Assembly (NCBI RefSeq): GCF_963921235.1
Contig: NC_086108.1
Coordinates: forward strand, 9,486,001 to 9,550,000
Length of the DNA stretch: 64,000 nt
Source: Mobula hypostoma
Taxonomy: Eukaryota
Direction of reading: 5' to 3'
Shown here piece by piece: positions 1,459-64,000 of this stretch. How positions within the stretch are numbered: position 1 is the first letter of the stretch; every line of letters starts with the position of its first letter. A program made the position numbers and the translations under genes. The notes below the pieces were generated by a model. That model made no database searches and was not told where the DNA came from. It saw only the letters and a program-made list of their open reading frames with translations.

Positions 1459-2018
1459 CTGGTAAAATAGCAAAAAAACCTTAGTAAACCAAAACAGTGA
1501 ATACCAAAATCTGTCCTGTCCTTCCGTTTCTGTGGTCAAAGGCTGCTGAGTATTCTGGGATTTATTTCCAGTGATGTTAACAGCTGTTCTTTCTGGGTGA
1601 AACAAATCTGAGTCCCTTAGAAGGTGCAAATACAGTCTGATTATGCACGGAGCGTTTTGCATGTGATTAGCTTTCTGGTGCAGATTTTCATCTGATCTAC
1701 ATCTCCTCAGGTTCCCCAATATCAAACTAAAACCTCTCAACTTTCTACTCTACAATGGAACATCTCACTCCCTCTGTGAATGGTGCTGCAGCAAAAGCCT
1801 TGCACTCAACGTCAGTAAGACAGAAGAACAGACTGTGGACTTTAGTAAGGGTAAGACAAGGGAACACACATCAGTCCTCAGAGAGGGATCAGAAGTGAAG
1901 AGAGTTAGCAATTTCAAGTTCCTGGGTGTCAATATCTCTGAGGATCTAACCTGGGTCCAACATACTGATGCAGCTACAAAGGCAGGAAAACAGCGGCTAT
2001 ATTTCATTAAGAGCTTGA

Positions 2019-2267
2019 CGAGCAACACACATAAAAGTTGCTGGTGAACGCAGCAGGCCAGGCAGCATCTCTAGGAAGAGGTACAGTCGACGTTTCAGGC
2101 CAAGACCCTTCGTCAGGACTAACTCTTCCTTCAGTTAGTCGTGACGAAGGGTCTGGGCCTGAAACGTCGACTGCACCTCTTCCTAGAGATGCTGCCTGGC
2201 CTGCTGCGTTCACCAGCAACTTTGATGTGTGTTGCTTGAATTTCCAGCATCTGCAGAATTCCTGTTG
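2019..2267. mobile_element. Fold-back Penelope-like terminal-repeat insertion with hammerhead motifs
   Basis: Inverted arms 2021-2123 and 2134-2236 with a 10-nt spacer; TSD TAAGAGCTTGA at 2008-2018 and 2268-2278; interrupts a Rex1-like frame (YFIKSL|RRSG). Confidence 0.85.
2085..2120 (-). ncRNA. Minimal type-I hammerhead ribozyme motif, intact core
   Basis: AGTC-CTGACGA-AGG(GTCTTGG)CCT-GAAA-C-GTC-GACT: stem I AGTC/GACT, core CUGANGA, stem II, GAAA, GUC cleavage triplet; no monomeric stem III. Confidence 0.75.
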
Positions 2268-2714
2268 TAAGAGCTTGAGGAGATCTGGTCTGTCACTTGG
2301 AAACTTCTACTGTGGAGAGCATTCAAACTGGTTGCATCACCATCCGGTATGGGGGGGGGCGGCAACCGTACAGGATCAAAATAAGCTGCAGAGTTGTAAA
2401 CATAGTCAGCTCCATCATGGCACTAATCTCTGTAGTATTACGGACATCTTCAAGGACTGATGCCTTAAAAAACCAGCATCCATCATTAAGGACTCCCACC
2501 CCCCCACCCAGCTCACGCCTTGTCTCATAGCTACCAAAAGCAAGGAGGTACAGGAGCCTGAAGACCCACACTCAACGATTCTGGAAGAACTTCTTCCCCT
2601 CTGCCATCTGATTTCTGAATGGTTATTGAACCCATGAACACTACCTCACTAATTATTTTTTTCTATTTTTGCACTAATTTAACTATTTAAAAAAAATACA
2701 CACACACACATACA

Positions 2715-12070: not shown

Positions 12071-13057
12071 CTGGAACCAAACACACGGAGAGATGAGCCT
12101 TAGCTTGGGAAAGACAGCAGAGAAACCCAATACCTACATGATGTGCAAGGTGACATTTGAAACATCATAAACACAGATGCAACACCAGGAACCTTGCAGA
12201 AGTCAAGGTAGATCAGGTTCTGTGATGATTCATCCACTAATATTTGCTTTGCAGAGTGGGAAAATGGTGCAAATTTGAACCACAGTGATTTGCAGTACTG
12301 AACAGCTGAACACGCTAAGGAACATTTTATTCATTTCTTTAGTGATACAGTGTGGTAACAGGCTCTTCCGGTGCAACAAGCCGTGCTGCCCAATTACAAT
12401 CCATATGATCAATTTACCTACTGTACTAACCCGTACATCCCTGGAATGCTGGAGGAAACCCACAGGTCACAGTGAGAAGGTACAAAATCTTCACAACGAT
12501 GATAAATGAACTGGGTTGCTGGGGCTATGCACAAACTGTGCCACCCTTAATCTATCCTTTTCTAAAAGCTGGAACACAGCATACAATTAAAGGGATTGAC
12601 AAGAGTCATCCTTTGCAGTGCGGGTTGATGGCTCCTTGATTAGTAAAGGGATCAAGTGGGGAGATGGCAGGAGAACAGAGTTGAGAGGGAAAATAAAACA
12701 TCTATGATGGTATGGAGACCAGACTCAATGGGCCAAATAACCTACTTCTGCTCTTATGTTTTATGGTTTAAATTGTAGGGTTCTGAGCATCATAGGGGAA
12801 CTGACCAGAAGTAAAAGTACATATATGTCATTTTGAGATTCACTTTCTTGCAGGCATTTACAGGAAAATAAAATTCAATAGAATTTATGAAAAACTATAC
12901 ATAAACAAAGACTGACAAAAACAATTTGCAGAAGACAAATCATGCAAATAATAAAATAGATAAATAATACTGAGAACATGAGTTGTAGAGTCATTAAAAG
13001 TGAGTCTGCAGGTTGTGAATAATAAATATGTAAATAAATAATACAAAGAATGTGACT

Positions 13058-13615
13058 GAAGTTACCCACACTGGTTCAGGAGCCTGATGGTTGTGGGGTA
13101 ATAACTGTTCCTGAACCTGGTGGTGTGGGACCTGAGGCTGATTGTGGTGAGTGAAGTTATCCACACTGGTTTAGGAGCCTGATGGTTGTGGGGTAACAAC
13201 TGTTCCTGAACCTGGTGGTGTAGGACCTGAGGCTCATTGTGGTGAGTGAAGTTATCCACACTGGTTCAGGAGCCTGATGGTTGTGGGGTGATAACTGTTC
13301 CTGAACCTGGTGGTGTGGGACCTGAGGCTCTGTGTAGTGAGTGAAGTTATCCACACTGGTTCAGGAGCCTGATGGTTGTGGGGTAATAACTGTTCCTGAA
13401 CCTGGTGGTGTGGGACCTGAGGCTCATTGTGGTGAGTGAAGTTATCCACACTGGTTTAGGAGCCTGATGGTTGTGGGGTAACAACTGTTCCTGAACCTGG
13501 TGGTGTAGGACCTGAGGCTCATTGTGGTGAGTGAAGTTATCCACACTGGTTCAGGAGCCTGATGGTTGTGGGGTAATAACTATTCTTGAACCTGGTGGTG
13601 TAGGGCCCAAGGCTC
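13058..13615. repeat. Tandem array, 95-bp unit, ~5.9 copies, derived from a minus-strand Rex1-like 3' region
   Basis: Units start at 13058, 13153, 13248, 13343, 13438 and 13533; each encodes LRS(H/Y)TTRFRNSxYPTTIRLLN-like sequence on the minus strand. Confidence 0.95.
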
Positions 13616-14056
13616 CTGTACCTCCTATGCGATGGAGGGATGCAGGAGTAGTACGAGTAGATAGTTCGCTGAAAGCATTGTCACAAACTGTCAGGGTGAT
13701 GAAGGTGTTTGGCACACAGGCCTTCAGTCAAAGAATTGAGTACAGGAGTTTGAACCTTGTTGGCAAGGTCTGGAAGATTGTGTAGAGCTTCAGTCGCCCT
13801 GTTATGGACAGATGTCAATAAACTGGCAAGAGTCCAAAGAACAATGTCCTCAGAAAGTGAGGGTCTGAGTGATAGGAGAGGGTGCGCAGGCTAAGACTTT
13901 ATTCACAAACACAAGAGACTCTGCAGATGCTGGAAATCCAGAAATACACACACAAAATGCTGGAGGAACTCAGCAGGCCAGGCAGCATCTATGGAAAAGG
14001 AAAAAAAGTCGATATTTCAGCCTGAGATCCTTCATCTTTGACTGCTTACTCTTTTC

Positions 14057-14450
14057 CTTTTCTTTTTGGTGTGTGCCTGCGTACGTGCGAGTCTGTGCAT
14101 GTGCGTGCGTGTGTACGTGATGATGTCTTTTTCATGGCTTTTACAAGGGGGGGAGGGGGGAGAGGGGAGAGGGGAGAGAGCGAGAGCGAGATAGAGAGAG
14201 ACACACACAGACAGAGAGACAGAGACAGAGACAGACACACAGACAGAGACAGACTGACTGACCGGCACACCACTCCTCACACAGACATTTTCACAGTACT
14301 TTTACCTTTTATTTTAGGAGGTTGAGTTGCGATCTCGTCATTCAACCCAGCACGGATGGAAAGTGTACTCGGGAGTGGACCCGACTGGTTTCGAACCTGG
14401 GAACCTCCGCTCCCAGGTCTGGTGCCGATGTCATTACGCCACCAGCTGGC
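14057..14450 (-). mobile_element. tRNA-derived SINE with an internal GA/CA microsatellite
   Basis: Minus-strand head GCCAGCTGGTGGCGTAATGA (A box) ...GGTTCGAAACC (B box); A-rich tail; 15-bp TSD CTGCTTACTCTTTTC at 14042-14056 and 14451-14465. Confidence 0.85.
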
Positions 14451-14559
14451 CTGCTTACTCTTTTCTATAGATGCTGCCTGTCCTGCTGAGTACCTCAAGC
14501 CTTTTGTGTGTGTGTTGCCTAGGATTTTATTCCTTGGGATGAAGACTGAGGGGTGAGCT

Positions 14560-14928: not shown

Positions 14929-16348
14929 GCTCAGGACAGACTTTGACTTTTTGGCAGAGGTTATACAGTTTTGAAGAACATTGGTAAGTGTATACAGTCT
15001 TTATTGAAGGGAAAGGGACCCAAAAACTAGAGAGCACAGGTTTAAGGTTTAAGTGAGGGTGGTGGGGGGGGGGGGGCAACTTCTTTGTTCGGAGGATAGT
15101 GTCTATATGGAATGAGTTACAAGAGAATGATCAAAATTTAAAAAGGCATGATGATGAATACATCTAGAGGAAAGGTTTAGAGGAAGAGTTCTCAACTTTA
15201 ATGACATTAGTCAAAGACAGAGTATGAAGGGCATATTTTCTCCATACCTTGGCCAACATCTCTGTCCCTCAAGTGTGGACTATCTGGCAACTTTAAGCTA
15301 TCCAAACTGGCTTGCATATTTGTCAACAAAGCAAGCACCTTGACTACACTTCAAAAGGTGGTTCATTGACTGCAATCTTTTTATGAAGTACAGGAAGATA
15401 CAATATAGTAAACTTTAAACGCGAGAGATTCTGCAGATGCTGGAAATCCAGAGCAAGACACACACAAAGTGCTGCAGTCACTCAGCAAGTCAGACAGCAT
15501 CTATGCAGGGGAAGAAATAATCGATGTTTCAAGAGGAGACCCTTCATCGGGACTCAGAAAATAGTAAAATTTCTACCTCCTCTCCTTTTCATCAATTGCT
15601 AGGGCTGGAAAAAGGTATTTAGAAACAGGATCAATGCCCGTTTCATTTCGGTTTCAGAAGAAACATTACATCAGATGGAACAGAAGAATGTTTCCCAGTG
15701 GCCACCCATTTCTATTCTGACATGTCAGTCCACGGCCTCTTCTACAGCCATGATGAGGCCCGCACTCAGGTTGGAGGAGCAACATGTTATATTCTGTCAG
15801 GGTAGCCTCCAACATGATGGGATGAACATTCATTTCTCGAACTTTTGGTAGTTGCCCTCCTCTCCTTCACTATTCCCCATTCCTGTTTCTCTTTCACACC
15901 TTCTCTTCTTACCTGCCCATCACCTCCTTCTGGTGCACCTCCTCCTTCCTTTTCTTCCATGGTCTTCTGTCCTCTCCTATCAAATTCCCCCTCCTCCAGT
16001 CCTTTCTCTCTTTCACTAATCAACTTCCCAGCTCCTCACCTCACCCCCTCCTCTGGTTTCACCTATCACCTGCCACCTCGTACGTTTTCCTCCCCTCCAC
16101 CCACCTTCTTGGTCTGACTTTTCCCCATCCTTTTCAGTCCTGTATTTCACAATTTTCTTTTTTTCTCTGTTACTATGTATTACATTGAACTGCTGCTGCA
16201 AAGTCAACAAATTTCACAACATATGCCGGTGATATTATACCTGATTTTGATTTTGTGTGTGCTGCAGGAGAATGAATAGCATTAGAATGCACAGCAGAAG
16301 AACGTACACGTCAGCCAACAGTGATTGTCGTAACCTGCAGATACCCAC

Positions 16349-17452: not shown

Positions 17453-18807
17453 TAGTGAAACCCTGCTATAACACGATTGTTTGGGTCCATAGAATGTCAT
17501 CGCGAAAAAATCAGGGTTGTTGTTACTGTAGAGATGATCCTCTGATCTAAGGGCTGGACTTTGGATGTAGTGTTCTTGGGGAGATAAGAAACTCGGATCT
17601 TTCTGTCACGGCTTACTAGGTTGGCAGCTGGCAGATGCACGGAACAGTTGTCAAACGAAAGGAGAGCTTTGGGTTCTAGCTTTTGCTTAGCAAATCAGCG
17701 CAGATGGCAGGGGCAAAAGTTTTGTGAAACCAATCCTCAAAAGATGACACTTGTCATCCAAGCATTGCTGCTGTGCGTGTACTCAAACAGTAACTTCATG
17801 TTGACATGGTGGAAACAGCGGGGCGAGCGAGATTTGCCAATCATGAGCAGTTTTAACTTGTGTTCCAATCTTGCTTGCACAAAACAACAACATCATGCGA
17901 CCTTTGTGTTGTTTGAACCCCTCACGTCGGTGGGCGTCATCTTTGCTAGCCAGTGTACGGTCTGGGATCATCTTGTAGCAGAGGCCTGTTTTGTCACAGT
18001 TGTACACTTGTTCTTCCACGTAGCCACCTTCTTCTAAGCAAGTTTTTAGTTCAGCCGGGTATTCGCTTGCGGCGGCACTGTCGGCTGAGCAAATTTCTCC
18101 TGACACTAACACTTGAGAAATCCCGTGACGGCGTTTAAACCGGTCTAGCCATCCATTGCTAGCTTTGAACTGTGAGGGTTCTCTGCTGATCTGCTTGTCA
18201 AACTTCTTGGCTTGAGCTTTGAGAATAGGACCGGAAATTGGAAGGCCTTCTGAGCGAGCTTGAACAAACCACTCGTACAGGGAGTCATCGAGGCTGACAT
18301 CTTTTGCTGCCTTCAGGCGGTTAGCTTTTAGTCCTGCTTCTTCTTCAACTTTGCAACGCGACGCACATAACTGTTCTTCGTGAGATTTCCAGCCATGAAG
18401 TGTTGATTCTGGTATCCCCAGGTTTCGTGCAACTTGAGTTTGACTTTTAGTCTTGATCGCGTCAAGTGCGTGAAGCTTATCTTTCACAGAAAAAGATTTT
18501 CTTTTTCTAGCAGTTTGTTCCATTTTGACCAAAAAAAACGTCCAATGACTCACACCAAAATGCTGGTGGAACGCAGCAGGCCAGGCAGCATCTGGTCGAG
18601 ACCCTTCATCAGGACTAACGGAAAAAAGAGACAGTGAGAGATTTGAAAGTGGGAGGGAGAGGGAGGGACCCAAAATGATAGAAGACGACAAGAGGGGAAG
18701 GGATGAAGCCAAGAGCTGGGAAGTTGATTGGCAAAAGCGATACAAGGCTGGGGAAGGGGGAGTATGGACTGACATGGACATGGAGTCCAATGACTCATCG
18801 TGTTATA
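17453..18807 (-). mobile_element. Tigger/pogo-family DNA transposon, decayed and interrupted by a PLE fragment
   Basis: Transposase from ATG 18523: CENP-B-type HTH (MEQTARKRKSFSVKDK...FKASNGWLDRFKRRHGI) and NCDKTG, then frameshifted NAWMT, FDN and QPLDQ down to ~17525. TIR-like TAGTGAAACCCTGCTATAACACGA at 17453; partial inverted match at 18798-18807. Confidence 0.88.
18553..18784 (-). mobile_element. Penelope-like pLTR fragment inserted upstream of the Tigger ORF
   Basis: TSD GTCCAATGACTCA at 18540-18552 and 18785-18797; the GAAAC-GTC half of the hammerhead is deleted. Confidence 0.8.
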
Positions 18808-30396: not shown

Positions 30397-30591
30397 TGTG
30401 GCGACCCACTTTCTGACACCCACGAACCGGCTCACGAAACAGCGCGCGCAGGCAGAGGGCAGGCCGCAAAAAGGGCGGGAACGGGAAGGCTTTAAAGCGG
30501 GCCGCGAAGTTTGAATAAACCTCTTTCATCGCAACTCCAACTCACCGACTCCGTGTGGTTATTCTAGCGCTGTGTGTAGCACATCGCTACA
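30397..30591 (+). repeat. 5' LTR of the Gypsy element
   Basis: TGTGGCGA...TCGCTACA termini; TTTAAA and AATAAA (30514-30519) inside; 4 mismatches vs the 3' LTR. Confidence 0.96.
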
Positions 30592-30593
30592 AT

Positions 30594-30607
30594 TGGTGAC
30601 CCCGACG
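30594..30607 (+). other. Primer-binding site, tRNA-Trp
   Basis: TGGTGACCCCGACG, 2 nt after the 5' LTR, complementary to the 3' end of vertebrate tRNA-Trp (...CGUCGGGGUCACCA). Confidence 0.85.
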
Positions 30608-30631
30608 GCCCAAACGATATTTGGACCAGAG

Positions 30632-33600
30632 ATGACCGATGCCGCATCTGTTCACGCAGTTTCGTTACAACTGCCAGGCTTCAGGACGCTGCGACCCCAT
30701 TTATGGTTCGAACAGGCAGAAGCACAATTCCACATTCGGCAGATAACCTCGGAGTCCACTCGCTACTACTACGTGCTGAGCTCCCTCGACCAGGAGACTG
30801 TTGCACAAGTTAAGGAGTTTATACAGTCGCCCCCGGAGGACGGCAAATACACAGCATTCAAAACCCTGCTCATAAGGACTTTCGGACTCTCACGGCGCGA
30901 ACGAGCACGCCGCTTAATGCACCTGGATGGTTTGGGAGACAGGCCGCCGTCAACATTAATGAACGAGATGCTGGCCCTGGCTGAAAGACACAAACCCTGC
31001 CTCATGTTTGAGCAGGCGTTCCTAGAGCAACTGCCTGAGGACATATGCCTGCTGCTGTCCGACGCAGATTTCAGCAAACCCTGGGAGGTGGCGGCCCGAG
31101 CAGATGTGCTGTGGAATGCCAGGAAAGAGAGAGGGGCATCCGTCGCACAGATCACCAAGCCGCGTGCCCAACGACAGACCAGACCAGGCCCGGCAGCAGA
31201 GCCTACAAAACCCGGCGACGGGAGTGAGGAGCCCAATGAACAATGGTGTTTCTACCACCAGCGGTGGGGCACGGAGGCCCACCGCTGCAGACCGCCCTGC
31301 AAATTCCTGGGAAATGCCAAGGCCCAGCCGCTGCCGATCGCTACGGCGGCTGGCCATCAGGACAGTCTCCTGTACGTCTGGGACAAGCAGTCGAGACGCC
31401 GCTTTTTGGTCGACACCGGAGCGGAGATCAGCATCTTACCTCCAACGAGTTACGACACCCGCAACAGAGAACCGGGACCCACCCTGAGGGCCGCTAATGG
31501 CAGCACAATACGAACCTACGGCACCCGCACGGTGCGGCTACAGTTCAGCTCCAGCTGGTTCACGTGGGACTTCACACTGGCCGCCGTGGCCCAACCACTC
31601 CTGGGCACGGATTTTCTACGAGCCCACAGCCTGCTGGTCGACTTGCAAAGGAAGCGATTAGTCCATGCCAAGACTTTTCAAACGTTCTCCCTGGGTGAAG
31701 CACAGTTGCCAGCCCCACACCTGGACTCCATCACGCTGTCCGACGATGAATTCACCAGGGTCCTGGCGGATTTCCCATCAGTACTGACACCGCAGTTCAC
31801 GGCAGCCATGCCCAGACACGGAGTACAGCACCACATCCCGACCCAGGGACCACCCCTCCACGCCCGTGCTTGAAGGCTTCCCCCGGACAAGCTCCGACTG
31901 GCGAAGGAGGAGTTCAAGAAGATGGAGGAATTAGGGATCATACGACGGTCCGACAGCCCATGGGCCTCCCTCCTTCACATGGTGCCCAAGGCAACGGGGG
32001 GCTGGAGACCATGAGGTGACTACCGCAGACTGAACGAGGCTACAACGCCAGACCGCTACCCTGTGCCGCACATTCAAGACTTCGCAGCAAACCTACACGG
32101 CGCAAGGATCTTTTCCAAGGTAGACCTCGTCCGGGGATACCATCAAATCCCTGTACATCCGGACGACATCCCCAAAACAGCACTTATCACCCCGTTCGGA
32201 CTTTTCGAATTCCTCCGAATGCCGTTTGGTCTAAAGAACGCCGCACAGACTTTCCAGCGGCTAATGGACGCGGTGGGACACGACCTGGACTTTGCATTCA
32301 TCTATTTGGACGACATCCTCATAGCGAGCAGTAGTCGGCAGGAGCATCTGTCCCACCTCCGCCAGCTCTACTCCCGCCTGAGTGAATTCGGCCTTACAAT
32401 CAATCCAGCCAAATGCCAGTTTGGACTCGACACCATCGACTTCCTGGGCCACAGGATTACTAAAGACGGGGCAACCCCGCTGCCCGCCAAGGTAGACGCG
32501 GTCCGCCACTTCCCCCGACCCAACACAATCAAAGGCTTGCAGGAATTCGTGGGTATGGTGAATTTCTACCACTGTTTCCTCCCCTCAGCAGCCCGAACGA
32601 TGCGCCCCTTGTTCACTCTAATGTCGGGTAAGGGCAAGGACATTACCTGGAACCAAGAGGCCGCAACCGCTTTCATTAAAACCAAAGAAGCCTTGGCAAA
32701 CGCCGCGATGCTAGTGCACCCCAGAACGGACGTTCCTACTGCCCTCACGGTGGACGCATCCAACACAGCAGTCGGTGGAGTGCTGGAACAACTCATCGAG
32801 GGTCGCTGGCAACCCCTGGCGTTCTTCAGCAAACACCTACGACCACCGGAACTCAAATACAGTGCTTTCGACCGGGAGCTATTGGCACTATACCTGGCAA
32901 TCCGGCATTTCAGGTACTTCTTAGAAGGTAGGCCCTTCACCGCGTTCACCGACCACAAACTGCTTACCTTTGCGTTCACTAAGGTGTCCGACCCCTGGTC
33001 GTCCCGCCAGCAGCAACATCTGTCCTACATCTCCGAGTACACGACGGACATCCGGCATGTCTCTGGAAAGAACAATGTCGTGGCAGACGCACTTTCCAGA
33101 CCTACTATACAGGCCCTGTCCCAGGGGGTGGACTATGCAGCGCTGGCAGAGGCACAGCAGGCAGACGCTGAGATCCCCAGTTACAGGACTGCAGTCTCCG
33201 GTTTGCAGCTCCAAGACCTCCCCGTAGGCCCAGGTGAGAGGACCCTCCTGTGTGACGTAGCTACTGGCCAACCCCGCCCCGTCGTCCCAGCAGCCTGGCG
33301 CCGGCGGGTGTTCGAATCCATTCACAACTTAGCGCACCCCTCCATCAGGACAACCGTCCGGCTGGTCTCCAACAGGTTCGTGTGGCATGGACTGCGTAAA
33401 CAGGTCAGTGAATGGGCCAAAACGTGTATGCAGTGCCAAACGGCCAAGGTGCAGCGGCACACCAAGGCTCCACCGCAGCGGTTCGAACCCACCCGTTGGA
33501 GGTTTGACCACATCCATGTGGATATCGTGGGGCCCCTGCCAGTGTCACGAGGAGCGCGGTACCTCCTAACTATGATAGACCGGTTCACCAGATGGCCAGA

Positions 33601-34495
33601 GGCAGTCCCACTCAGCGACACCACCTCCGAATCCTGCGCCCGAGCACTGATCGCAACCTGGGTAGCACGCTTTGGGGTACCGGCCCACATTACCTCCGAC
33701 AGGGGCGCCCAGTTCACCTCCAGCCTGTGGTCGGCTATGGCCAGACTTTTAGAAACACAGCTACACCACACAACTGCCTACCACCCACAGTCGAACGGAC
33801 TAGTGGAGCGCTTCCACCGTCACCTGAAATCGGCTCTCATGGCCCGCCTGGAGGGGCCTAACTGGGTGGACGAACTTCCCTGGGTCCTGCTCGGAATCCG
33901 CACGGCGCCCAAAGAGGATCTACACACCTCGTCGGCCGAGTTGGTGTACGGCGCGCCCCTGGTCGTCCCAGGAGAGTTCATACCAGCCCCAAGGGGGCAA
34001 GAGGAAGAACCCACAGCAGTCCTGGACAGACTACGGGAGAGGCTCGGTAACCTGGCCCCCATACCCACTTCACAGCACGGACAGAGCCCGACCTGCGTAC
34101 CCAAAGACCTGCAGAACTGTAAGTTTCTTTTTGTACGACGGGGCGGACACCGGGCACCGCTACAGCGGCCCTACGAGAGGCCGTTTAAGGTGATCAGCAA
34201 CAACGGGTCCACGTTCGTGCTGGACATTGGGGGGAGAGAGGAGGTTTTCACGGTGGACCGACTCAAACCGGCCCATGTGGACTTGGCGCAACCGGTCCAG
34301 GCTCAGGCACCACGGCGCAGGGGCAGACCTCCCAAACAGAGGCCGATCCAGACTGTGGACATTGGGGGAGGTATCGCCGGTTCTGGGGGGGCGTTATGTG
34401 GCGACCCACTTTCTGACACCCACGAACCAGCTCACGAAACAGCGCGCGCAGGCAGAGGGCAGGCAGCAAAAAGGGCGGGAACGGGAAGGCTTTAA
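30632..34495 (+). pseudogene. Gypsy gag-pol in one frame with two premature TGA stops (31871-31873, 32012-32014)
   Basis: Gag with a CFYH...C..PC knuckle; protease FLVDTGA; RT YLDD; RNase H TVDAS/DRELLA/ADALSR; integrase HNLAH-CMQC with HVD/SDRG/VER. ORFs 30572-31873 and 32063-34495 are in the same frame. Confidence 0.93.
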
Positions 34496-34591
34496 AGCAG
34501 GCCGCGAAGTTTGAATAAATCTCTTTCATCGCAACTCCAACTCACCGACTCCGTGTGGTTATTCTAGCGCTGTGTGTAGCACATCGCTACA
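34397..34591 (+). repeat. 3' LTR of the Gypsy element
   Basis: 191/195 identical to 30397-30591; followed by TSD AATG. Confidence 0.96.
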
Positions 34592-34693
34592 AATGTACAT
34601 TTACCACACTGCAGTTCATTAAAGTGTGAATAGACAATAGACAAATTATTTTGATTACCCAATAAATAAAGGACAGACAATTTATCCACAAAC

Positions 34694-34803: not shown

Positions 34804-36745
34804 CTGTGATAAAAATGAGAAACCAAAAAATCTCACTTCAGAAACAGAGGGAAAACTATCATTAGTTGACGGACCTGTTACAATAAATAATTCAATTGTA
34901 TAATAGCAATTATAGTTATAGAGTAGATACTGAAGTTTAGTTATCCACCTACTAACCAGTCACATCTCAATTTAACTGTCAACACCATTCACTACATTCA
35001 TAGCTAGAATCCATCCAAATGTGTTCCAACACTATTACAACCCAACTGACCAGAAATTTGAAGACTGATACTCCCAAGAAAGATTTCATAATATATGCCA
35101 ATAGATTATACTTACCCACAGGAGGGAAAAGAGAAAATAAAACACCCAAACCTCTTCCACAGACCTAACACAATTGATTCACAGAATCAACAAACAATGA
35201 TGTTGCCGAGGCCACTGAATTTCAGCACGGAGGAATAACTGAGTAGGTTGGATGTTATGCTAAAACAATGCAGAACCAGTGTGGACAGCTTCACTCACCA
35301 CAGCTCTGAACTGATCATTGAACATAACCTATGGACTCAATTTCAAAGACTCTACAAGTCATGTTCTCAGAATTACTTATTTAATATTATTAGGTTCTTT
35401 TTGTATTTACAGTTTGTCTTCTTTTGCACATTGATTTGTTTGTTCAAAGTTTAAAGTAATTTTTATTATCAAAGTACATAAACCTCACCATATATAACCA
35501 AGATAATTTTTTCGTGGGCATATTCAACAAATCTATAGTATAATAACCATAACAGAAACAATGAAAAACTGAACCAACTTGGATGTTTAACCAGAGTGTA
35601 GAAGACAACAAGCTGCAAACACGAAAAGAGGAAATAATAATAAAAATAAATAAGCAATAAATATCAAGAACATAAGATGGCGTGAGTCCATTGGATGTGG
35701 AAACATTTCAATGATGGGACAAGTGAAGTTATCCCCTGTGGTTCAAGAGCCTGATGGTTGAGGGGTAATTAACTGTTCCTGATCCTGGTGGTGGTGTCCA
35801 GAGTCCTGGGTGTAGTTTTCCATTGATGCTATTATACTACTTTGATCTACTGTAAATGCCTGAAAGAAAATGAATCTCAGGGTATTATTCTGTAACGTGC
35901 AAGTACTTTGATAATAAATTTACTTTGAACTTTGAAGAGAGTTACAGAGAAGTTATGCATCAATAACTTCGGAATCTAGATTTTACAGTTCATTTTAGTA
36001 AACACCATCTTGGGTCAATCCAAAGAATGTAGGGGTCCCAAACTAATTGAGTTTGTCTAGCTGAAGCAGAAAGCATCTTATGGTACTGGATGCGCTGTGA
36101 CACACAAGGCTAGAGGTGAAAGGTTAAAGATTGGGATCAGGCTAGATCTTAGATAAGCAAGCACAGTCTGACTGATTATAGTTCATGGACTCAGCAACAA
36201 GAGGCTTGACATGGAGCATGCCGTGCAAGTGATGACTATTTAAAGGCAGAAAAAGTCAGTGATTACTTCTGCTTTAGTGCAGTTTTCCAGTAAAATCACA
36301 GTAACAAAACCAGAAAAATCAACAGACAGTTGAGCCCTTGTCATATCTAGCATAAACAAATCTGCATACTGTGAAATACCAAGTAGATAACCATCACAAA
36401 GTGAAGCTCTGTTAATGCATACATTAAACCTCTTATGACAGATTACTAACAAATTATACATAAGGAGAAAACTAGCAGACATTGGATTATGTATTTCCCC
36501 TTTTCGAGTAGTTAATGACTACTAGTTGATATTGTTATTGGTTCATTATTGCCACCTGTACCAAGATTGCCTTGCATACTGTTGAGATAGATCAAATCTT
36601 ATCGTACAAGAGTTAGATAACAGTGCGATAGAAGCTGTCCTTGAACTTGGTGGCTTGATATTCAAATTTAACTCTTGCTACAAAAGTGCCTGTCGCAAGT
36701 CTCAAAATATGAGGCTGACAAAAATTCAAAGTACTTTCCAAGTAT

Positions 36746-36985
36746 CACACATCAAAGTTGCTGGTGAACGCAGCAGGCCAGGCAGCATCTCTAGGAAGAG
36801 GTACAGTCGACATTTCAGGCCGAGACCCTTCATCAGGACTAACCCTTCCTTCAGTTAGTCCTGATGAAGGGTCTGGGCCTGAAACGTCGACCGTACCTCT
36901 TCCTAGAGATGCTGCCTGACCTGGTTCACCAGCAACTTTGATGTGTGTTGCTTGAATTTCCAGCATCTGCAGAATTCCTGTTGTT
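36746..36985. mobile_element. Second fold-back Penelope-like insertion with hammerhead motifs
   Basis: Same arms and near-identical spacer as 2019-2267; 14-bp TSD TACTTTCCAAGTAT at 36732-36745 and 36986-36999. Confidence 0.87.
36857..36892 (+). ncRNA. Minimal hammerhead motif, intact core (antisense partner at 36805-36840 on the minus strand)
   Basis: AGTC-CTGATGA-AGG(GTCTGGG)CCT-GAAA-C-GTC-GACC; the minus copy reads AGTC-CTGATGA-AGGGTCTCGGCCT-GAAA-T-GTC-GACT. Confidence 0.73.
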
Positions 36986-39084
36986 TACTTTCCAAGTATG
37001 TATACTTTATACAACCTTGAGATTTGTTTCCTTACAGGGAGCCACAAAACAAAGAAACCAAAATAAGATGGACCTTTGAGTTCACAATCTACCTTATTCT
37101 GACTTGGCACTTTGCTACTTACCTGCACTGACTTTCTCTGTAGCTATTACACTTTATCCTGCATTGTTATTGTTTTACTTTGTTCTACCTCAATGTTCTA
37201 TCTAACTCCTGAGTGTCAATATCTCTGAGGACCTAACCGAATCAATGTAACTATGAAAAAGGCAAGATGGCAGCTATATTTCATTAGGAGTTTGAGAAGA
37301 TTTGGTTTGTCACAAAACTACTACAGGTGTACCGTGGAGAGCATTAGGGCTGGTTACATCACTGTCTGATATGGGGGGGGGGGGGGGAGAAGGAGGCTAC
37401 TGCGCAGGATTGAAGTAAGCTGCGGAGTGTTGTAAAATTAGTCAGTTCCATCATGGGCACTAGCCTCTGGAGTATCCAGGCCACCTTCAAGGTGTGATGC
37501 CTCAAAAAAAATGTGGCATCCAACAAGTACCCTCACTACCCAGGACATGCTCTCTTCTCATTGCTACCATGGAGGAGGTACAAAAGCCTGAAGACACACA
37601 CTCAGTGATTCCAGAACAACTTCTTCCCCTCTGCCATTCGATTCTGAATGGACAGTGAACCCATGAACACTACCTCACTACCTTAAAAAAATATCTATAT
37701 ATACACATACACACACATAAATACTTACTGTAATTCAGTTTTTTCTATAATTATCATATATTGCATTGTACTGCTGCCACGAAGTTAACAAAGTAATCAA
37801 TCTTGGTACAGACGACGAAAGTAAACCAATACCAATATCAGATGGAGCAGAAATAATTACCAAATGATTGAACACTGCTGAGCTTAAACTATACTGCATA
37901 AACACACACAGAAAAAAACTGGCCATCAACCATACACCAACTGCCACCGGCCAGACAGAGGCAACAACAGAATTCTGTCACCAGTCCAACACCAGCATGG
38001 AGAGTAAATGGAAAGTCAAGCAGCACAAAGAAACCTTTAATCAGCTTTTACATTAAATATATGCCTCATGCTTTGCAAAGCAAAATTACCACTGAAGTTT
38101 CAGAAGCTTTCTATTTGTTAAAATATTATTTTGAACTTTCAGGAAAAAATTCTCCACTGACTAAAAGTAATAAAGGTTAAAATCAACTTTATCTGTTGCA
38201 CGTACATCGGAATCTACAATTAAATGCACCGATTGCACTGATGCGCAACATAGTCCATGAATATGCTGGGGGCAGGCCACAAATGTCACTATGCTTCTGA
38301 CACTAACGGAGCATCCCTATAACTTACCAACCCTATCCTGTATGTCTCTGGAATGTGGGAGGAAACCGGAGCACTCTGAGGAAACCACATGGTCACGGGG
38401 AGAATAAGGACAGAGGTGGGAACTGAACTTGACTGCTGGTGCTGTAAAGCATTACGCTAGTTGTTATGCTACCATACTGCCCTAGTGCAAACACAGTATG
38501 CATTTGGTAGTTTTCATAGAGTATCTGCAACTTAATACTTTAGGAGTGAAGGGGTGGGGGTGAAACTGGAGAATGGAAGTGGAATGGGTTACATTTACAA
38601 GACATAGGAGAAAAATTAGACCATTTGGCTCATCAAGTCTGCTCTGCTATTTCATCATGGCTGATTCATTTCCTTCTCAGCCCCAATCTCCTGCCTTCTC
38701 CCCATATCCCTTGACTAATCAAGAATCTATCAACCTCTGCCTTAGCTACACCCAATGAATTAGCCTTCACAGTGCCCATGGCAACAAATTCCACAGATTC
38801 ACCACTCTCTGGCTAAAGAAATTCCTCCTCATCTCTATTCTAAAAGGATGTCCCTTTATTCTGAGACTGTGTCCTCTTGTCTTAGATTCCTCCACCATAG
38901 GAAACATCCTCTACACATCCACTCTATCAAGGCCTTTCAGCATTTAATAGATTTCAATGAGATTCCCCTTTTCTTCTGAATTCCAGTGGATACAGGTCCA
39001 GAGCAATCAAACGCTCCTCATATGACAAGCCTTCCAATTCTATAGCTGGGGCCACCTCCACTCAGATTCAATCCATTCAGCAAT

Positions 39085-56180: not shown

Positions 56181-56438
56181 GCAAAACTCTGGAGGAACTC
56201 AGCAGGCCGAGCAGCATCCATAGAAAGGAATAAGCCGAAGTTTCAGGCTGAAACCCTTCAACGGGACCAAAAAGAAAGATCTGCCTTCTTTTCCCTTTTT
56301 TCCCTGTCCTGATGAAGGGTTGCAGCCTGAAACAGTGACTGTTTATTCCTTTCCATAGATGCTGCCTTAACCTGCTGAATTCCTCCAGCATTTTGTGAAT
56401 GTTGCTCTAGATTTCCAACAAATGCAGAATCTCGTGTT
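56181..56438. mobile_element. Older fold-back Penelope-like terminal repeat
   Basis: Inverted GGAGGAACTCAGCAGG / CCTGCTGAATTCCTCC arms; plus-strand CTGATGA-AGGGTTGCAGCCT-GAAA at 56309-56332 with a mutated cleavage triplet. Confidence 0.7.
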
Positions 56439-60493: not shown

Positions 60494-62865
60494 TAGTCAG
60501 TGAATTTGCTAACAATAAGCTACAATATTTGTGACTCGACTCGGTTATGAAGTACACGACATAAAAATTAAATAGTGGGTCTGTCCACAGCAAGAATAAA
60601 ATGGCAGGCAGATGTCAGCAGTCAGTTCCTATTGCAACATTTCTTAAGAAGGGAGCAACTGCACCCCCCCCCCCCCCGAGGGGCCGCACACATTGCATAA
60701 ACGAGCAGTCATTACATCCCAGACTAATCGGACTGGGCTGCTGCCAATAAAACATCTGACAGTGACACCTGACCATATCCGACCAAAGTCCATCAGTTTC
60801 ACATTCACAGACAGGCCTCAAATGTATAATTTCATTTGATTGCATGAAGGAGAAAAAAAAAACAGCTGTTGGTTTGTTCTGCATTCAGACATTTTTGTCC
60901 TTGTCTATATATAGACTGACGCCACAGGCATGGTTGGGTACTGAATGTTCTTTGTAGCTTTTATAACGCACATGTTTTCTATTATACAACATCTGCAACA
61001 GACATTGAGATGTTTTAATGTTATTTTCTCCCTCCTTTTGAAATTACCCCTCCTCAGCAAGAAGGTGGATGATGGAGATGCTTTCACACCTCTGCTACTG
61101 CCACGCTAAAACTAACATCAAATACATCATTCTGGGGTGATTTTCTAGACTGTTTATCTTTCCAAGGAAGTTCCACTCTGCCTTTCTCTCCCCTCCCCCC
61201 CAACCCAGATGATGTAGCCAAGTTCAGAAATGTGTGGTGCAAATTCCTAACCTATTTTGACTCTGTTAGCTCACTGCACTGCCTAAATACTTCTGCTAAA
61301 ATATCCCAGAGGAGGAACTGATGGAACAAGAGCACGGTTCTTAAAATCATGGCATCACTGTCAGACATTTCTAGTTTTCTATTATTCTTCACAGACTGGT
61401 TTGAGATTATTCAAGCCAAGCAAACACACCAGTTTTCCGACACTGACTGCTTTACTGAGGTACTCTCTCCCTGCAGAACCTGCCTATTTCTTTGAGTGAG
61501 TCAAGGTAGCAGTGACAGACTTGGACCATCAGTTATAGATACAGAATTCGGCCATTTGGCCCATTGAGACTGCTCTGTCATTTCATCATGACTGATCCAT
61601 TTCCCTCCCAGGCCCAATCTCCTGCCTTTTCCCCACAACCTTTCATGCCCTGACTAATTAAGAATCTATCAACCTCTGCCTTAAATATACTCAATGACTT
61701 GGTTTCAAAGCCACCTGTGGCAGTGAGTTTCACAGATATACCACTCTGTGGCTAAAGGAATGGCTCCTCATCTCTGTTCTAAATGGACATCCCTCTATTC
61801 TGAGGTTGTGCCCTTTGGTCTTAGAATCCCTACCATATTAAAAAAATCCTCTCCACATCCATCCTATTGAGGACATTCAACATTCGCTAAGTTTCAATGA
61901 CATACCCCCTCATTCTTGAATTCCAGTGAGTACTGACCTAAAGCTATCAAACACTCCTTACATGATAAGCCTTTCAATCATGGAATCATTTTTTGTGAAC
62001 CTCCTTTGAACTCTCTCCAATGTTAGTACATCCTTTCTTAGATAATGGACCCAAAAGTGCTCACAATACTCCAAGTGAGGCGTTAACAGTGCCTTATAAA
62101 GCCTCAGCATTAGATCCTTGCTTTGATATTTTAGTCCCCTTGAAATGAATGCTAACATCGCATTTGCCTTTCTCCCCACCGACTTAACCTGCAAATTAAC
62201 TTCCAGGGAATCCTGCACAAGGACAAGTTGACTCGCACTTAAATCCTTTACCGCTTCAGGATCGGCCTATTAGGACAGCACTTGTACAAGACTGGACTAT
62301 AAGACATTAAATTCAGCCCATTGATTCTTGTCATTCCATCATGGCTGATTTATTACCCCTCTCCTGTCTTCTCCCTGCAACTATGAAGCCCTTACCAATT
62401 AGAATCTGTCAAACCACTGCTTTAACTATATCTATGAAATAGGTGCAAAGTTCACATTTATTAACTAGTACTCAAAATAACAAGTGTATTGTAACAAATT
62501 TTATTTACTTATTGAGTTACAGCGTGGAATAGCCCCATCCGAGGCTTCAAGCCGCACTGCCCAGCAATCCCTCAATTTAACCCTAGCCTAATCGCTGGAC
62601 AGTTTACAATTAACCTACCAACCTGGTAGGTCTTTGGACTGTGGGAGGAAACCGGAGCATCTGGAGGAAACCCACAAGCTCACGGAGAAATCATACTAAC
62701 TCCTTACAGGCAGCAGCAGGAATTGAACACGGATTGCCTGTACTGTAAAGCATTGTGCTAATCACTATGCTACCATGCCACCTCAATGCCGGCAACATTA
62801 AGTTACGGCGAGCTGGGCACAACACTTCTTTGTCAAAAACTTCAATAATTAAATGTCAACCTTAC

Positions 62866-63381
62866 CTGCACTAGTATTGCTTCCAATGTTGTTGATTGCG
62901 GATGGCACTGACACAGATGTATGCAGAGGCAAATGCCCATTCTCACAGGTCATTGGCTTGTCCTGCCAGGCAGGAACAGTGACACACATGCCGCTGTCTG
63001 CTCGGTTCTGCCACTCATTCAGCTTGTCCTCAACGTTCTGTCTTTGATTTTGGTTGTACGCTCCTGTGTAGATAGAGTCTGCCCGCCCAACACCTGATGA
63101 GCTGTAGTTGCTCGACATGTGCTCCTCCAGGTGAGTTAGCCATAAGGCCAGGGAACTCCGGTCGTCCAGCGAGGTGGCAGGATGAATTAGTGCATAGGAC
63201 AGGAGCTGCCTACTCTCTTCTATAAACAGGTTGCTATCGATTGAGTAAGCCAGCACCTTTTGCAGCAGCTTCATGTACTCAGACTTTGCTTCTATATTCC
63301 CAGGCTGAAGTAGAGGAAGATGGGAAAGCAGCTGTAGAACAACCTTCTCCTTAGGGTCTTGATGCCATTGACTGATGAAAG
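62866..63381 (-). CDS. SAMD4B: Smaug homolog (SAMD4B-like), internal coding exon, N-terminal region (516 bp)
   Basis: Acceptor tttttcag|CT and donor G|gtaag, phase 1/1. Translates [81 protein letters not shown]..., recognisable SAMD4 sequence. Family call is firm; A vs B paralog is less so. Confidence 0.93.
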
Positions 63382-64000
63382 CTGAAAAAAAAATACAGTT
63401 ACTTAAATTTTCGGAAATAAATCACTTCCTGTCAAGTTTACTCTTCCACTTGCCTTCAGATATAACCTACAATCATTTCAATTACAGCTACAGTGGAGTA
63501 GGCCCAGTACATCCCTGGAGAGTAAAGCCCTCCAAACCATTGAGCACATCTATATGAACTGCTGTCATAGGAATGTAGCAGTCATCATCAGAGAACCCCA
63601 CCACCCAGGCCATGCTCTCCTCTTGCTGCTGCCAGCAGGTAGAAGGTACAGGAGCCTCAGGATGCACCACCAGATTCCAGAACAGTTACTACCCCACACC
63701 ATCAGGCTCTTGAACAAAGGAGATAACTACACTCACTTTCTCCATCACTGAGATGCTCCCACAACCAAACATCTCACTTTAAAGACTCTTTATCTCATGT
63801 TCTTGATACTTATTGCTATTTATTAATGTTTGCATTTGCACAGTTTCTGTCTTCTACACTCTGGATGATCTTTCATTGATCCTGTTATAGTTACTATTCT
63901 CTAGTGCCACAACTTTTGAACATTGCTTTGTCAGTCTGTTACTTAAATTATTTCATAAATTCTATTGTACTTCTTTATTTTCCTGTAAACGCCTGCAAAA

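What the first reader, a model, noticed from the sequence alone, without database searches (positions are those of the whole stretch)
36732..36999. Second independent fold-back copy with the same inversion junction
Seen: different flanks and its own 14-bp TSD, but the same arms, the same spacer (AAC-CCTTCCTTCA-GTT vs AAC-TCTTCCTTCA-GTT) and the same 3' end (...CTGCAGAATTCCTGTTGT) as the 2019-2267 copy. Both strands keep CUGAUGA/GAAA/GUC. Inference: the palindrome is either a defined ~240-250-nt non-autonomous mobile RNA (a retrozyme-like PLE parasite) or the product of a stereotyped template switch during PLE integration. I do not know of a description in this lineage, but cannot check novelty.
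Basis: partly seen in the sequence, partly recalled or inferred. Interest (0 to 1): 0.72.

Follow-up and report, generated by a model that had tools for sequence, protein, structure and literature searches.

The report
Penelope fold-backs sharing one junction
Two separate 240–250-base hairpin-shaped insertions in this window are joined at exactly the same point, likely because the Penelope-like jumping gene they probably come from has a short built-in inverted repeat there that steers the join, which makes them a tidy case of a known insertion pattern, although a small family copied as a whole hairpin is not excluded.

Summary
Copy B (36746-36985, 14-bp TSD) and copy A (2019-2267, 11-bp TSD) are independent insertions, 94% identical, each a ~100-bp hairpin with the same inversion junction, a one-sided 29-38-nt tail and a minimal hammerhead per arm: the published layout of truncated Penelope-like (PLE) insertions. 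The junction is not arbitrary: the loop is native element sequence, and non-junction copies match up to 7 bases further, implying a native 3-7-bp inverted repeat (microhomology). Other junctions are very diverse (345 joints in two genomic runs; those shown have 1-4 contigs each), but the copy number of this junction could not be measured. Arm alleles conflict: both tail arms share a rare allele (≤2.7% of family depth), suggesting a common palindromic source, yet A's arms differ at two family-polymorphic sites and B's arms share a change A lacks. A crude model mildly favours independent two-template insertions at a hotspot (~55%) over a unit-copied mini-family (~30%). A retrozyme reading fails: one hammerhead per strand, buried by 51-64 kcal/mol, one carrying C3G, unequal ends. 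The scan noted PLE fold-backs repeatedly elsewhere in this genome; I saw no note on this shared junction.

The parts
36732..36745 (.). Left target-site duplication (14 bp); its last 7 bases match the antisense element end at 5 of 7 (possible priming microhomology)
36746..36843 (-). Left arm: inverted, 5'-truncated terminal-repeat (pLTR) copy without tail
36806..36839 (-). Minimal type-I hammerhead motif of the left arm (core kept; C after GAAA changed to U)
36844..36853 (+). 10-nt loop at the inversion junction; native element sequence, inside an inferred native 3-7-bp inverted repeat
   Evidence: (table 7)
36854..36947 (+). Right arm: sense pLTR copy with a 4-nt deletion; rare loop-II G allele at 36875 shared with copy A (2155)
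36858..36891 (+). Minimal type-I hammerhead motif of the right arm (intact core; predicted cut after 36888; predicted buried in the hairpin)
36948..36985 (+). One-sided 38-nt tail (29 nt in copy A because its left arm is longer)
   Evidence: tail described in PMC8557442 and PMC11167929
36986..36999 (.). Right target-site duplication (14 bp)
2008..2278 (+). Copy A: second fold-back 2019-2267 with the same junction, 11-bp TSD, inserted in an old dispersed repeat; plus-strand hammerhead has C3G

Best explanation
Each hairpin is likely a dead, severely truncated insertion of an abundant Penelope-like retrotransposon, likely made when both nicked target strands primed reverse transcription on the element's RNA ends and the two short cDNAs were joined through an inferred native inverted repeat, so the same junction would recur in independent events. 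Steps: (1) staggered nicks 11-14 bp apart give the TSD (TSDs shown; nicking inferred); (2) one strand primes at the distal start site (tail arm) and the other at the proximal one (tail-less arm) (one-sided tail shown; both-strand extension and two start sites reported for the Anolis element, PMC11167929; inferred here); (3) the tail-arm cDNA stops about 10-16 nt upstream of the hammerhead, where its end can pair with the ACTAACT stretch of the other cDNA over 3-7 bases (loop shown to be native; extent of the repeat inferred from read clipping and splice logic); (4) repair fills in, leaving a ~100-bp palindrome with an 8-10-nt loop (inferred). The hammerheads ride along and are predicted not to fold.
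For: Layout matches published PLE insertions: inverted 5'-truncated partner, one-sided 30-40-nt tail (PMC8557442 passages), overlapping or palindromic inverted junctions and 8-10-bp TSDs (PMC3846280), opposite-strand minimal hammerheads 100-700 bp apart (PMC4209133). Loop is native: 13 of 14 parsed Mobula gene models with the antisense arm read on through it as GLTEGR. Non-junction contigs start matching at 2118, 7 bases into the left arm (48 contigs in X1, 42 in X3; table 7), and 2118-2124 is the reverse complement of 2133-2139. Family junctions are diverse: 345 joints, the 15 shown with 1-4 contigs each; other fold-backs in the window join elsewhere. A's arms differ at 2174 (C in 49%/40% of family depth) and 2224 (T in 30%/35%), as expected from two templates; B's arms share a C>T that A's arms lack. 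Ends differ (7 nt left, 1-2 nt right), so neither copy is the parent of the other. Crude site model: unit-copy versus two-template likelihood ratio median 0.18, range 0.005-7.2, above 1 in 15% of 432 settings.
Against: Both tail arms carry G at hammerhead loop II where the left arms carry the common C or its CpG product; G is at most 2.4% (X1) and 2.7% (X3) of depth and in 0 of 17 Mobula gene-model arms. Two independent draws of it are unlikely (about 6e-4 for that site). Both of the 2 young copies in the window have this junction, which needs a strong hotspot or selection across many windows. The frequency of this junction was not measured (it is collinear with my reference, so it is not among the joints). 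The model's template frequencies and mutation rates are assumed ranges; depth shares are biased toward the reference allele and mix in sister subfamilies; 13 of the 15 joints shown may hide letters between the sides. The protein-level PLE identity was not confirmed here (searches found nothing).
Confidence: 0.55

Rival explanations
1. A palindromic source locus arose once at this junction, acquired the loop-II G on its tail arm, and was then copied whole by PLE machinery in trans as a small non-autonomous family bounded by outward-facing terminal repeats; A and B are siblings from a third locus.
For: Identical junction, tail on the same arm, and the shared rare arm-specific allele. G share (up to 2.4%) relative to the CpG transition at the same site (6.2%) looks high for a transversion, hinting at a G lineage (inference).
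Against: Needs two further changes that happen to hit family-polymorphic alleles in A (2174, 2224) and two parallel CpG changes in B, or patchy arm-to-arm conversion that skipped 2155, which lies between 2145 and 2174. Unequal ends. No gene model among 15 hits or 7 spans the junction (weak evidence).
Confidence: 0.3
2. Independent self-priming: one cDNA folds back on the native stem-loop and copies itself, so both arms come from one template.
For: Native stem-loop at the junction; self-priming was proposed for palindromic PLE junctions (PMC3846280 Discussion); B's arms agree at 2145, 2174, 2224.
Against: Arms should start identical, yet A's arms differ at two polymorphic sites and both tail arms share G; unit-copy was more likely than this model in all 432 settings (median ratio 20).
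Confidence: 0.07
3. Post-insertion homogenisation: ectopic gene conversion between the two loci (35 kb apart, same orientation) or recurrent centre deletion of longer palindromes put the same junction and the G allele in both.
For: Proximity and shared orientation; the shared features (junction, 2155) lie within about 30 bp of each other.
Against: A and B differ at three positions inside that tract (2124, 2141, 2145), so conversion would have to be old; no direct test.
Confidence: 0.06
4. A retrozyme-like ~250-nt RNA cut out by its own hammerheads and circularised.
For: Hammerhead cores are present on both strands of B; animal retrozymes derive from PLE terminal repeats (preprint 10.64898/2026.07.22.740005).
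Against: Only one motif per strand, so no unit can be excised; the predicted cut would separate the 3' priming region from the rest; folding the motif costs 51-64 kcal/mol against the hairpin; A's plus-strand core has C3G, a change that abolishes cleavage in the Anolis element (PMC11167929); no tandem array.
Confidence: 0.02

Closest known systems
Endonuclease-bearing PLE insertions with an adjoining inverted 5'-truncated copy and one-sided tail (Pen2/Pen2a/Pen3a of Adineta vaga, PMC3846280; general scheme in PMC8557442)
   Same: Head-to-head terminal repeats inside one TSD, tail on one arm, short overlap or palindrome at the inverted junction, one reported case of two insertions organised identically.
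   Different: No coding sequence at all between the arms; TSD 11-14 bp; two unlinked insertions with a base-identical junction explained by a native inverted repeat.
Poseidon element of Anolis carolinensis (PMC11167929)
   Same: Two reverse-transcription start sites that define the tail; both target strands cut and extended; hammerhead dispensable for insertion in vitro.
   Different: That paper does not, in the parts I read, address how inverted junctions form; clade of the element here was not determined.
Minimal type-I hammerheads of metazoan PLEs (PMC4209133)
   Same: Core motif, bulged base before helix II, no helix III; opposite-strand pairs 100-700 bp apart noted in Schistosoma.
   Different: Helix II is only 4 bp and closes with G-U rather than the conserved G10.1-C11.1; the pair here is about 25 bp apart and fully base-paired.
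Non-LTR retrozymes (PMC7229834; preprint 10.64898/2026.07.22.740005)
   Same: Short, non-coding, hammerhead-bearing, related to PLE terminal repeats, long TSDs.
   Different: Retrozymes are head-to-tail same-strand repeats yielding monomer circles; this is an inverted pair with one motif per strand.

Membership tests
Penelope-like element insertion | Inverted 5'-truncated terminal-repeat copy adjoining the direct copy within one TSD | tested here: met
Penelope-like element insertion | One-sided 30-40-nt tail | tested here: met
   38 nt in B, 29 nt in A; loose ends pile at 2263 and 2268
Penelope-like element insertion | Minimal hammerhead in the terminal repeat | tested here: met
   (3 of 4 arms keep CUGANGA; Rfam has no match at gathering score)
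Penelope-like element insertion | Parent ORF with telomerase-like RT and GIY-YIG endonuclease | tested here: inconclusive
   Related window copies run into short frames that I recall as the GIY-YIG C-terminus; homologue search, Pfam and Atlas gave no hit; no genome held
Non-LTR retrozyme | At least two same-strand hammerheads in tandem units | tested here: not met
   one motif per strand; no tandem array
Non-LTR retrozyme | Hammerhead able to fold in the transcript | tested here: not met
   predicted penalty 51-64 kcal/mol on all four strands; C3G in A plus strand
Non-LTR retrozyme | Discrete linear or circular monomer RNA | not testable with these tools
   needs northern blot or RNase R RT-PCR
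Non-autonomous family copied as a unit | Many copies sharing junction and arm-specific diagnostic alleles | tested here: inconclusive
   2 copies; 1 shared asymmetric allele against 3 discordant sites; junction copy number not obtainable
Non-autonomous family copied as a unit | Defined ends | tested here: not met
   left ends differ by 7 nt, right ends by 1-2 nt; PLE copies vary at ends anyway, so this lowers rather than excludes it

The most novel reading that the evidence does not exclude
A 240-250-bp perfectly self-complementary, non-coding mini-element that Penelope-like machinery copies whole, junction and arm-specific alleles included: a retrotransposon-driven counterpart of a MITE, seeded by a native inverted repeat, with tens to hundreds of copies in rays. 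It would show that PLEs can replicate a fully double-stranded hairpin template.
Probability: 0.3. Interest if true: 0.55.

Novelty: new member of a known kind. Interest (0 to 1): 0.27.

Why it matters
How PLEs make their inverted structures is described as unresolved (PMC8557442, PMC3846280). A recurrent junction in a very high-copy family gives a direct genomic test between twin priming, self-priming and whole-unit copying by reading arm haplotypes. If the hotspot reading holds, it is a useful detail on a known pattern; if the unit-copy reading holds, it adds a palindromic non-autonomous PLE class that repeat annotation would likely mislabel as a MITE or microRNA hairpin.

Tried and rejected
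No whole genome was held, so the genome-wide junction count was impossible. Pattern scans found nothing: viral contigs 2 of 2, metagenome contigs 2 of 2, prokaryote genomes 1 of 1; phage BLAST none. Rfam: 0 matches at gathering score; 11 sub-threshold matches, the best ones microRNA hairpins, taken as shape only. Sequencing runs: no RNA holder listed; I laid 4 of 24 listed runs, and the 2 raw-read runs laid 0 reads (no test), so only contigs informed. My plan to read junction-only alleles from a 43-base left-arm stub failed because short contigs from non-junction copies map there too. Protein searches with the hairpin's open frame returned exonised single arms, none across the junction; P0020 was an unrelated repeat protein and was dropped. 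PLE protein identity from window fragments: no hit. Segmental duplication rejected. Parent-daughter relation rejected (each copy is longer at one end). Splicing as cause of the junction rejected: the inferred donor lies on the antisense strand beside the junction, but the joined sequence is inverted, not spliced. Scan look-ups by relatives, sequence, words and 'near' returned nothing. Paper searches for a palindromic non-autonomous PLE family, or PLE hammerheads in rays, found no such paper in the listings; Repbase/Dfam and subscription papers were not searchable and no supplements were read, so a named family may exist there.

Full report
Observation. Copy B spans 36746-36985 between perfect 14-bp repeats; copy A spans 2019-2267 between 11-bp repeats. 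They are 94.2% identical over 243 columns and each folds into one hairpin of about 100 bp (z -23 and -29). The loops differ only in their first base. The abutting flanks are unrelated, and A's target word occurs once in a paralogous copy of the repeat it sits in, so these are two insertions, not a duplication. An exact 14-base repeat in such a position arose in 0.5% of 20,000 random placements. Small corrections: A's left arm is 7 nt longer, B's right end 1-2 nt longer, B's right arm lacks 4 nt, and A's plus-strand hammerhead core has C3G.

What it is. A profile search found 17 arm-like matches in the window; A and B account for 4 and are the only close copies. Each element is an inverted, truncated terminal-repeat copy joined head to head to a sense copy that carries a one-sided tail (38 nt in B, 29 nt in A), with a minimal hammerhead in each arm. 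This is the layout described for Penelope-like elements: inverted 5'-truncated partner and 30-40-bp tail (PMC8557442, passages), overlap or palindromes at inverted junctions (PMC3846280, passages and Discussion), opposite-strand minimal hammerheads (PMC4209133, parts 1-2 of 4), two RT start sites and both-strand extension (PMC11167929, parts 1-2 of 4). The parent ORF was not confirmed: related copies run into short frames that I recall as a GIY-YIG C-terminus, but three searches gave no hit. The subfamily occurs in Mobula hypostoma and M. birostris gene models and a sister form in Hypanus sabinus, and two genomic runs laid 81,034 and 52,635 contigs on the arm, so it is a very abundant ray repeat.

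The junction. The loop is native sequence: 13 of 14 parsed antisense gene-model arms read on through it as GLTEGR. The models are spliced right after that arginine, which by the GT rule implies at least a 3-base repeat (inference). Contigs from non-junction copies begin to match at 2118, seven bases into the left arm (48 contigs in X1, 42 in X3), and 2118-2124 is the reverse complement of 2133-2139. These contigs may partly belong to a sister subfamily and may hide a mismatch, so I give the native inverted repeat as 3-7 bp. Junctions in the family are otherwise diverse: 345 joints were reported, 15 shown, from 2106-2121 to 2151-2235, each in 1-4 contigs, 13 of them with unknown letters between. 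Other fold-backs in the window (45284-45418, 56184-56431, 13915-14521) join elsewhere. The focal junction is collinear with my reference and so was not counted.

One source or two events? For one source: both tail arms carry G in hammerhead loop II (2155, 36875) while the left arms carry C or its CpG product; G is at most 2.4% and 2.7% of depth and appears in 0 of 17 Mobula gene-model arms (15 antisense from 14 loci, one read by eye, and 2 sense). Against: A's arms differ at 2174 and 2224, where both alleles are common in the family (C 49%/40%; T 30%/35%), and both arms of B carry a C>T at 2145 that neither arm of A has. Neither copy can be the other's parent. A crude per-site model over 432 assumed settings gave unit-copy versus independent two-template ratios of 0.005-7.2 (median 0.18) and unit-copy versus self-priming ratios of 1.4-1672 (median 20). 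The inputs are assumed ranges and depth shares are not allele counts, so this only orders the rivals loosely. With the native repeat, and earlier unchecked notes that breakpoints in this genome cluster at the hammerhead's upstream edge (e1-9958889, e1-9848786), I put a twin-priming hotspot at 0.55, unit copying at 0.30, self-priming at 0.07, conversion or centre deletion at 0.06, retrozyme at 0.02.

Retrozyme reading. Non-LTR retrozymes are same-strand tandem hammerhead repeats (PMC7229834, passages; preprint 10.64898/2026.07.22.740005, parts 1-3 of 5). Here each strand has one motif, forcing it to fold costs 51-64 kcal/mol, one core has a change known to abolish cleavage, and there is no array. 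Expression was not testable.

Novelty. The architecture is known and the scan has noted it many times in this genome. I found no paper on a palindromic non-autonomous PLE family or on ray PLE hammerheads in nine searches; PMC8969392 (passages) mentions inverted pLTRs only as peculiarities of single copies. Repbase, Dfam, subscription papers and all supplements were unseen. Verdict: real, most likely an ordinary product of a known element at a microhomology hotspot; interest 0.27, rising to about 0.55 if a genome-wide haplotype table shows whole-unit copying.

Noticed in passing
P0003-P0019 (Mobula gene models; arm equivalent to window 36755-36850): The antisense arm has an open frame and appears as an in-frame alternative exon in 15 Mobula gene models (14 loci), mostly ending at GLTEGR; the sense arm appears in 2 more. 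Suggests frequent exonisation or systematic annotation artefact.
   Followed up: partly
window 45269-45436: A much smaller, older fold-back with a 13-bp TSD (1 mismatch), tail on the left arm, and no complete hammerhead.
   Followed up: partly
window 13895-14532: Older fold-back split by a nested ~400-bp insertion flanked by a 14-bp duplication (14043-14056, 14452-14465) and holding microsatellites plus a tRNA-like box (label recalled).
   Followed up: partly
window 56184-56431 and 15425-16140: Older head-to-head pairs of sister subfamilies with different junctions; the second keeps part of the element body.
   Followed up: partly
window 18542-18800: Sister-subfamily arm with an internal deletion, inserted in a pogo/Tigger-like transposase remnant (CENP-B_N, HTH_Tnp_Tc5).
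   Followed up: partly
window 30397-34595: LTR retrotransposon with 199-bp LTRs 97% identical and long gag-protease and RT-RNaseH-integrase frames.
   Followed up: partly
window 62849-63421, minus strand: Exon of a Smaug/SAMD4 homologue (E 1e-35 to human Smaug homolog 1); the fold-backs may lie in or downstream of this gene.
   Followed up: partly
window 13052-13615 and 49397-49788: Tandem arrays of 95-bp (5.9 copies; unit related to dispersed copies at 35722 and 52504) and 39-bp (10 copies) units.
   Followed up: no
window 2175 and 2229: Two arm alleles are at 10-13% of depth in run X1 but about 1% in run X3, hinting at a lineage-specific burst of one subfamily.
   Followed up: no
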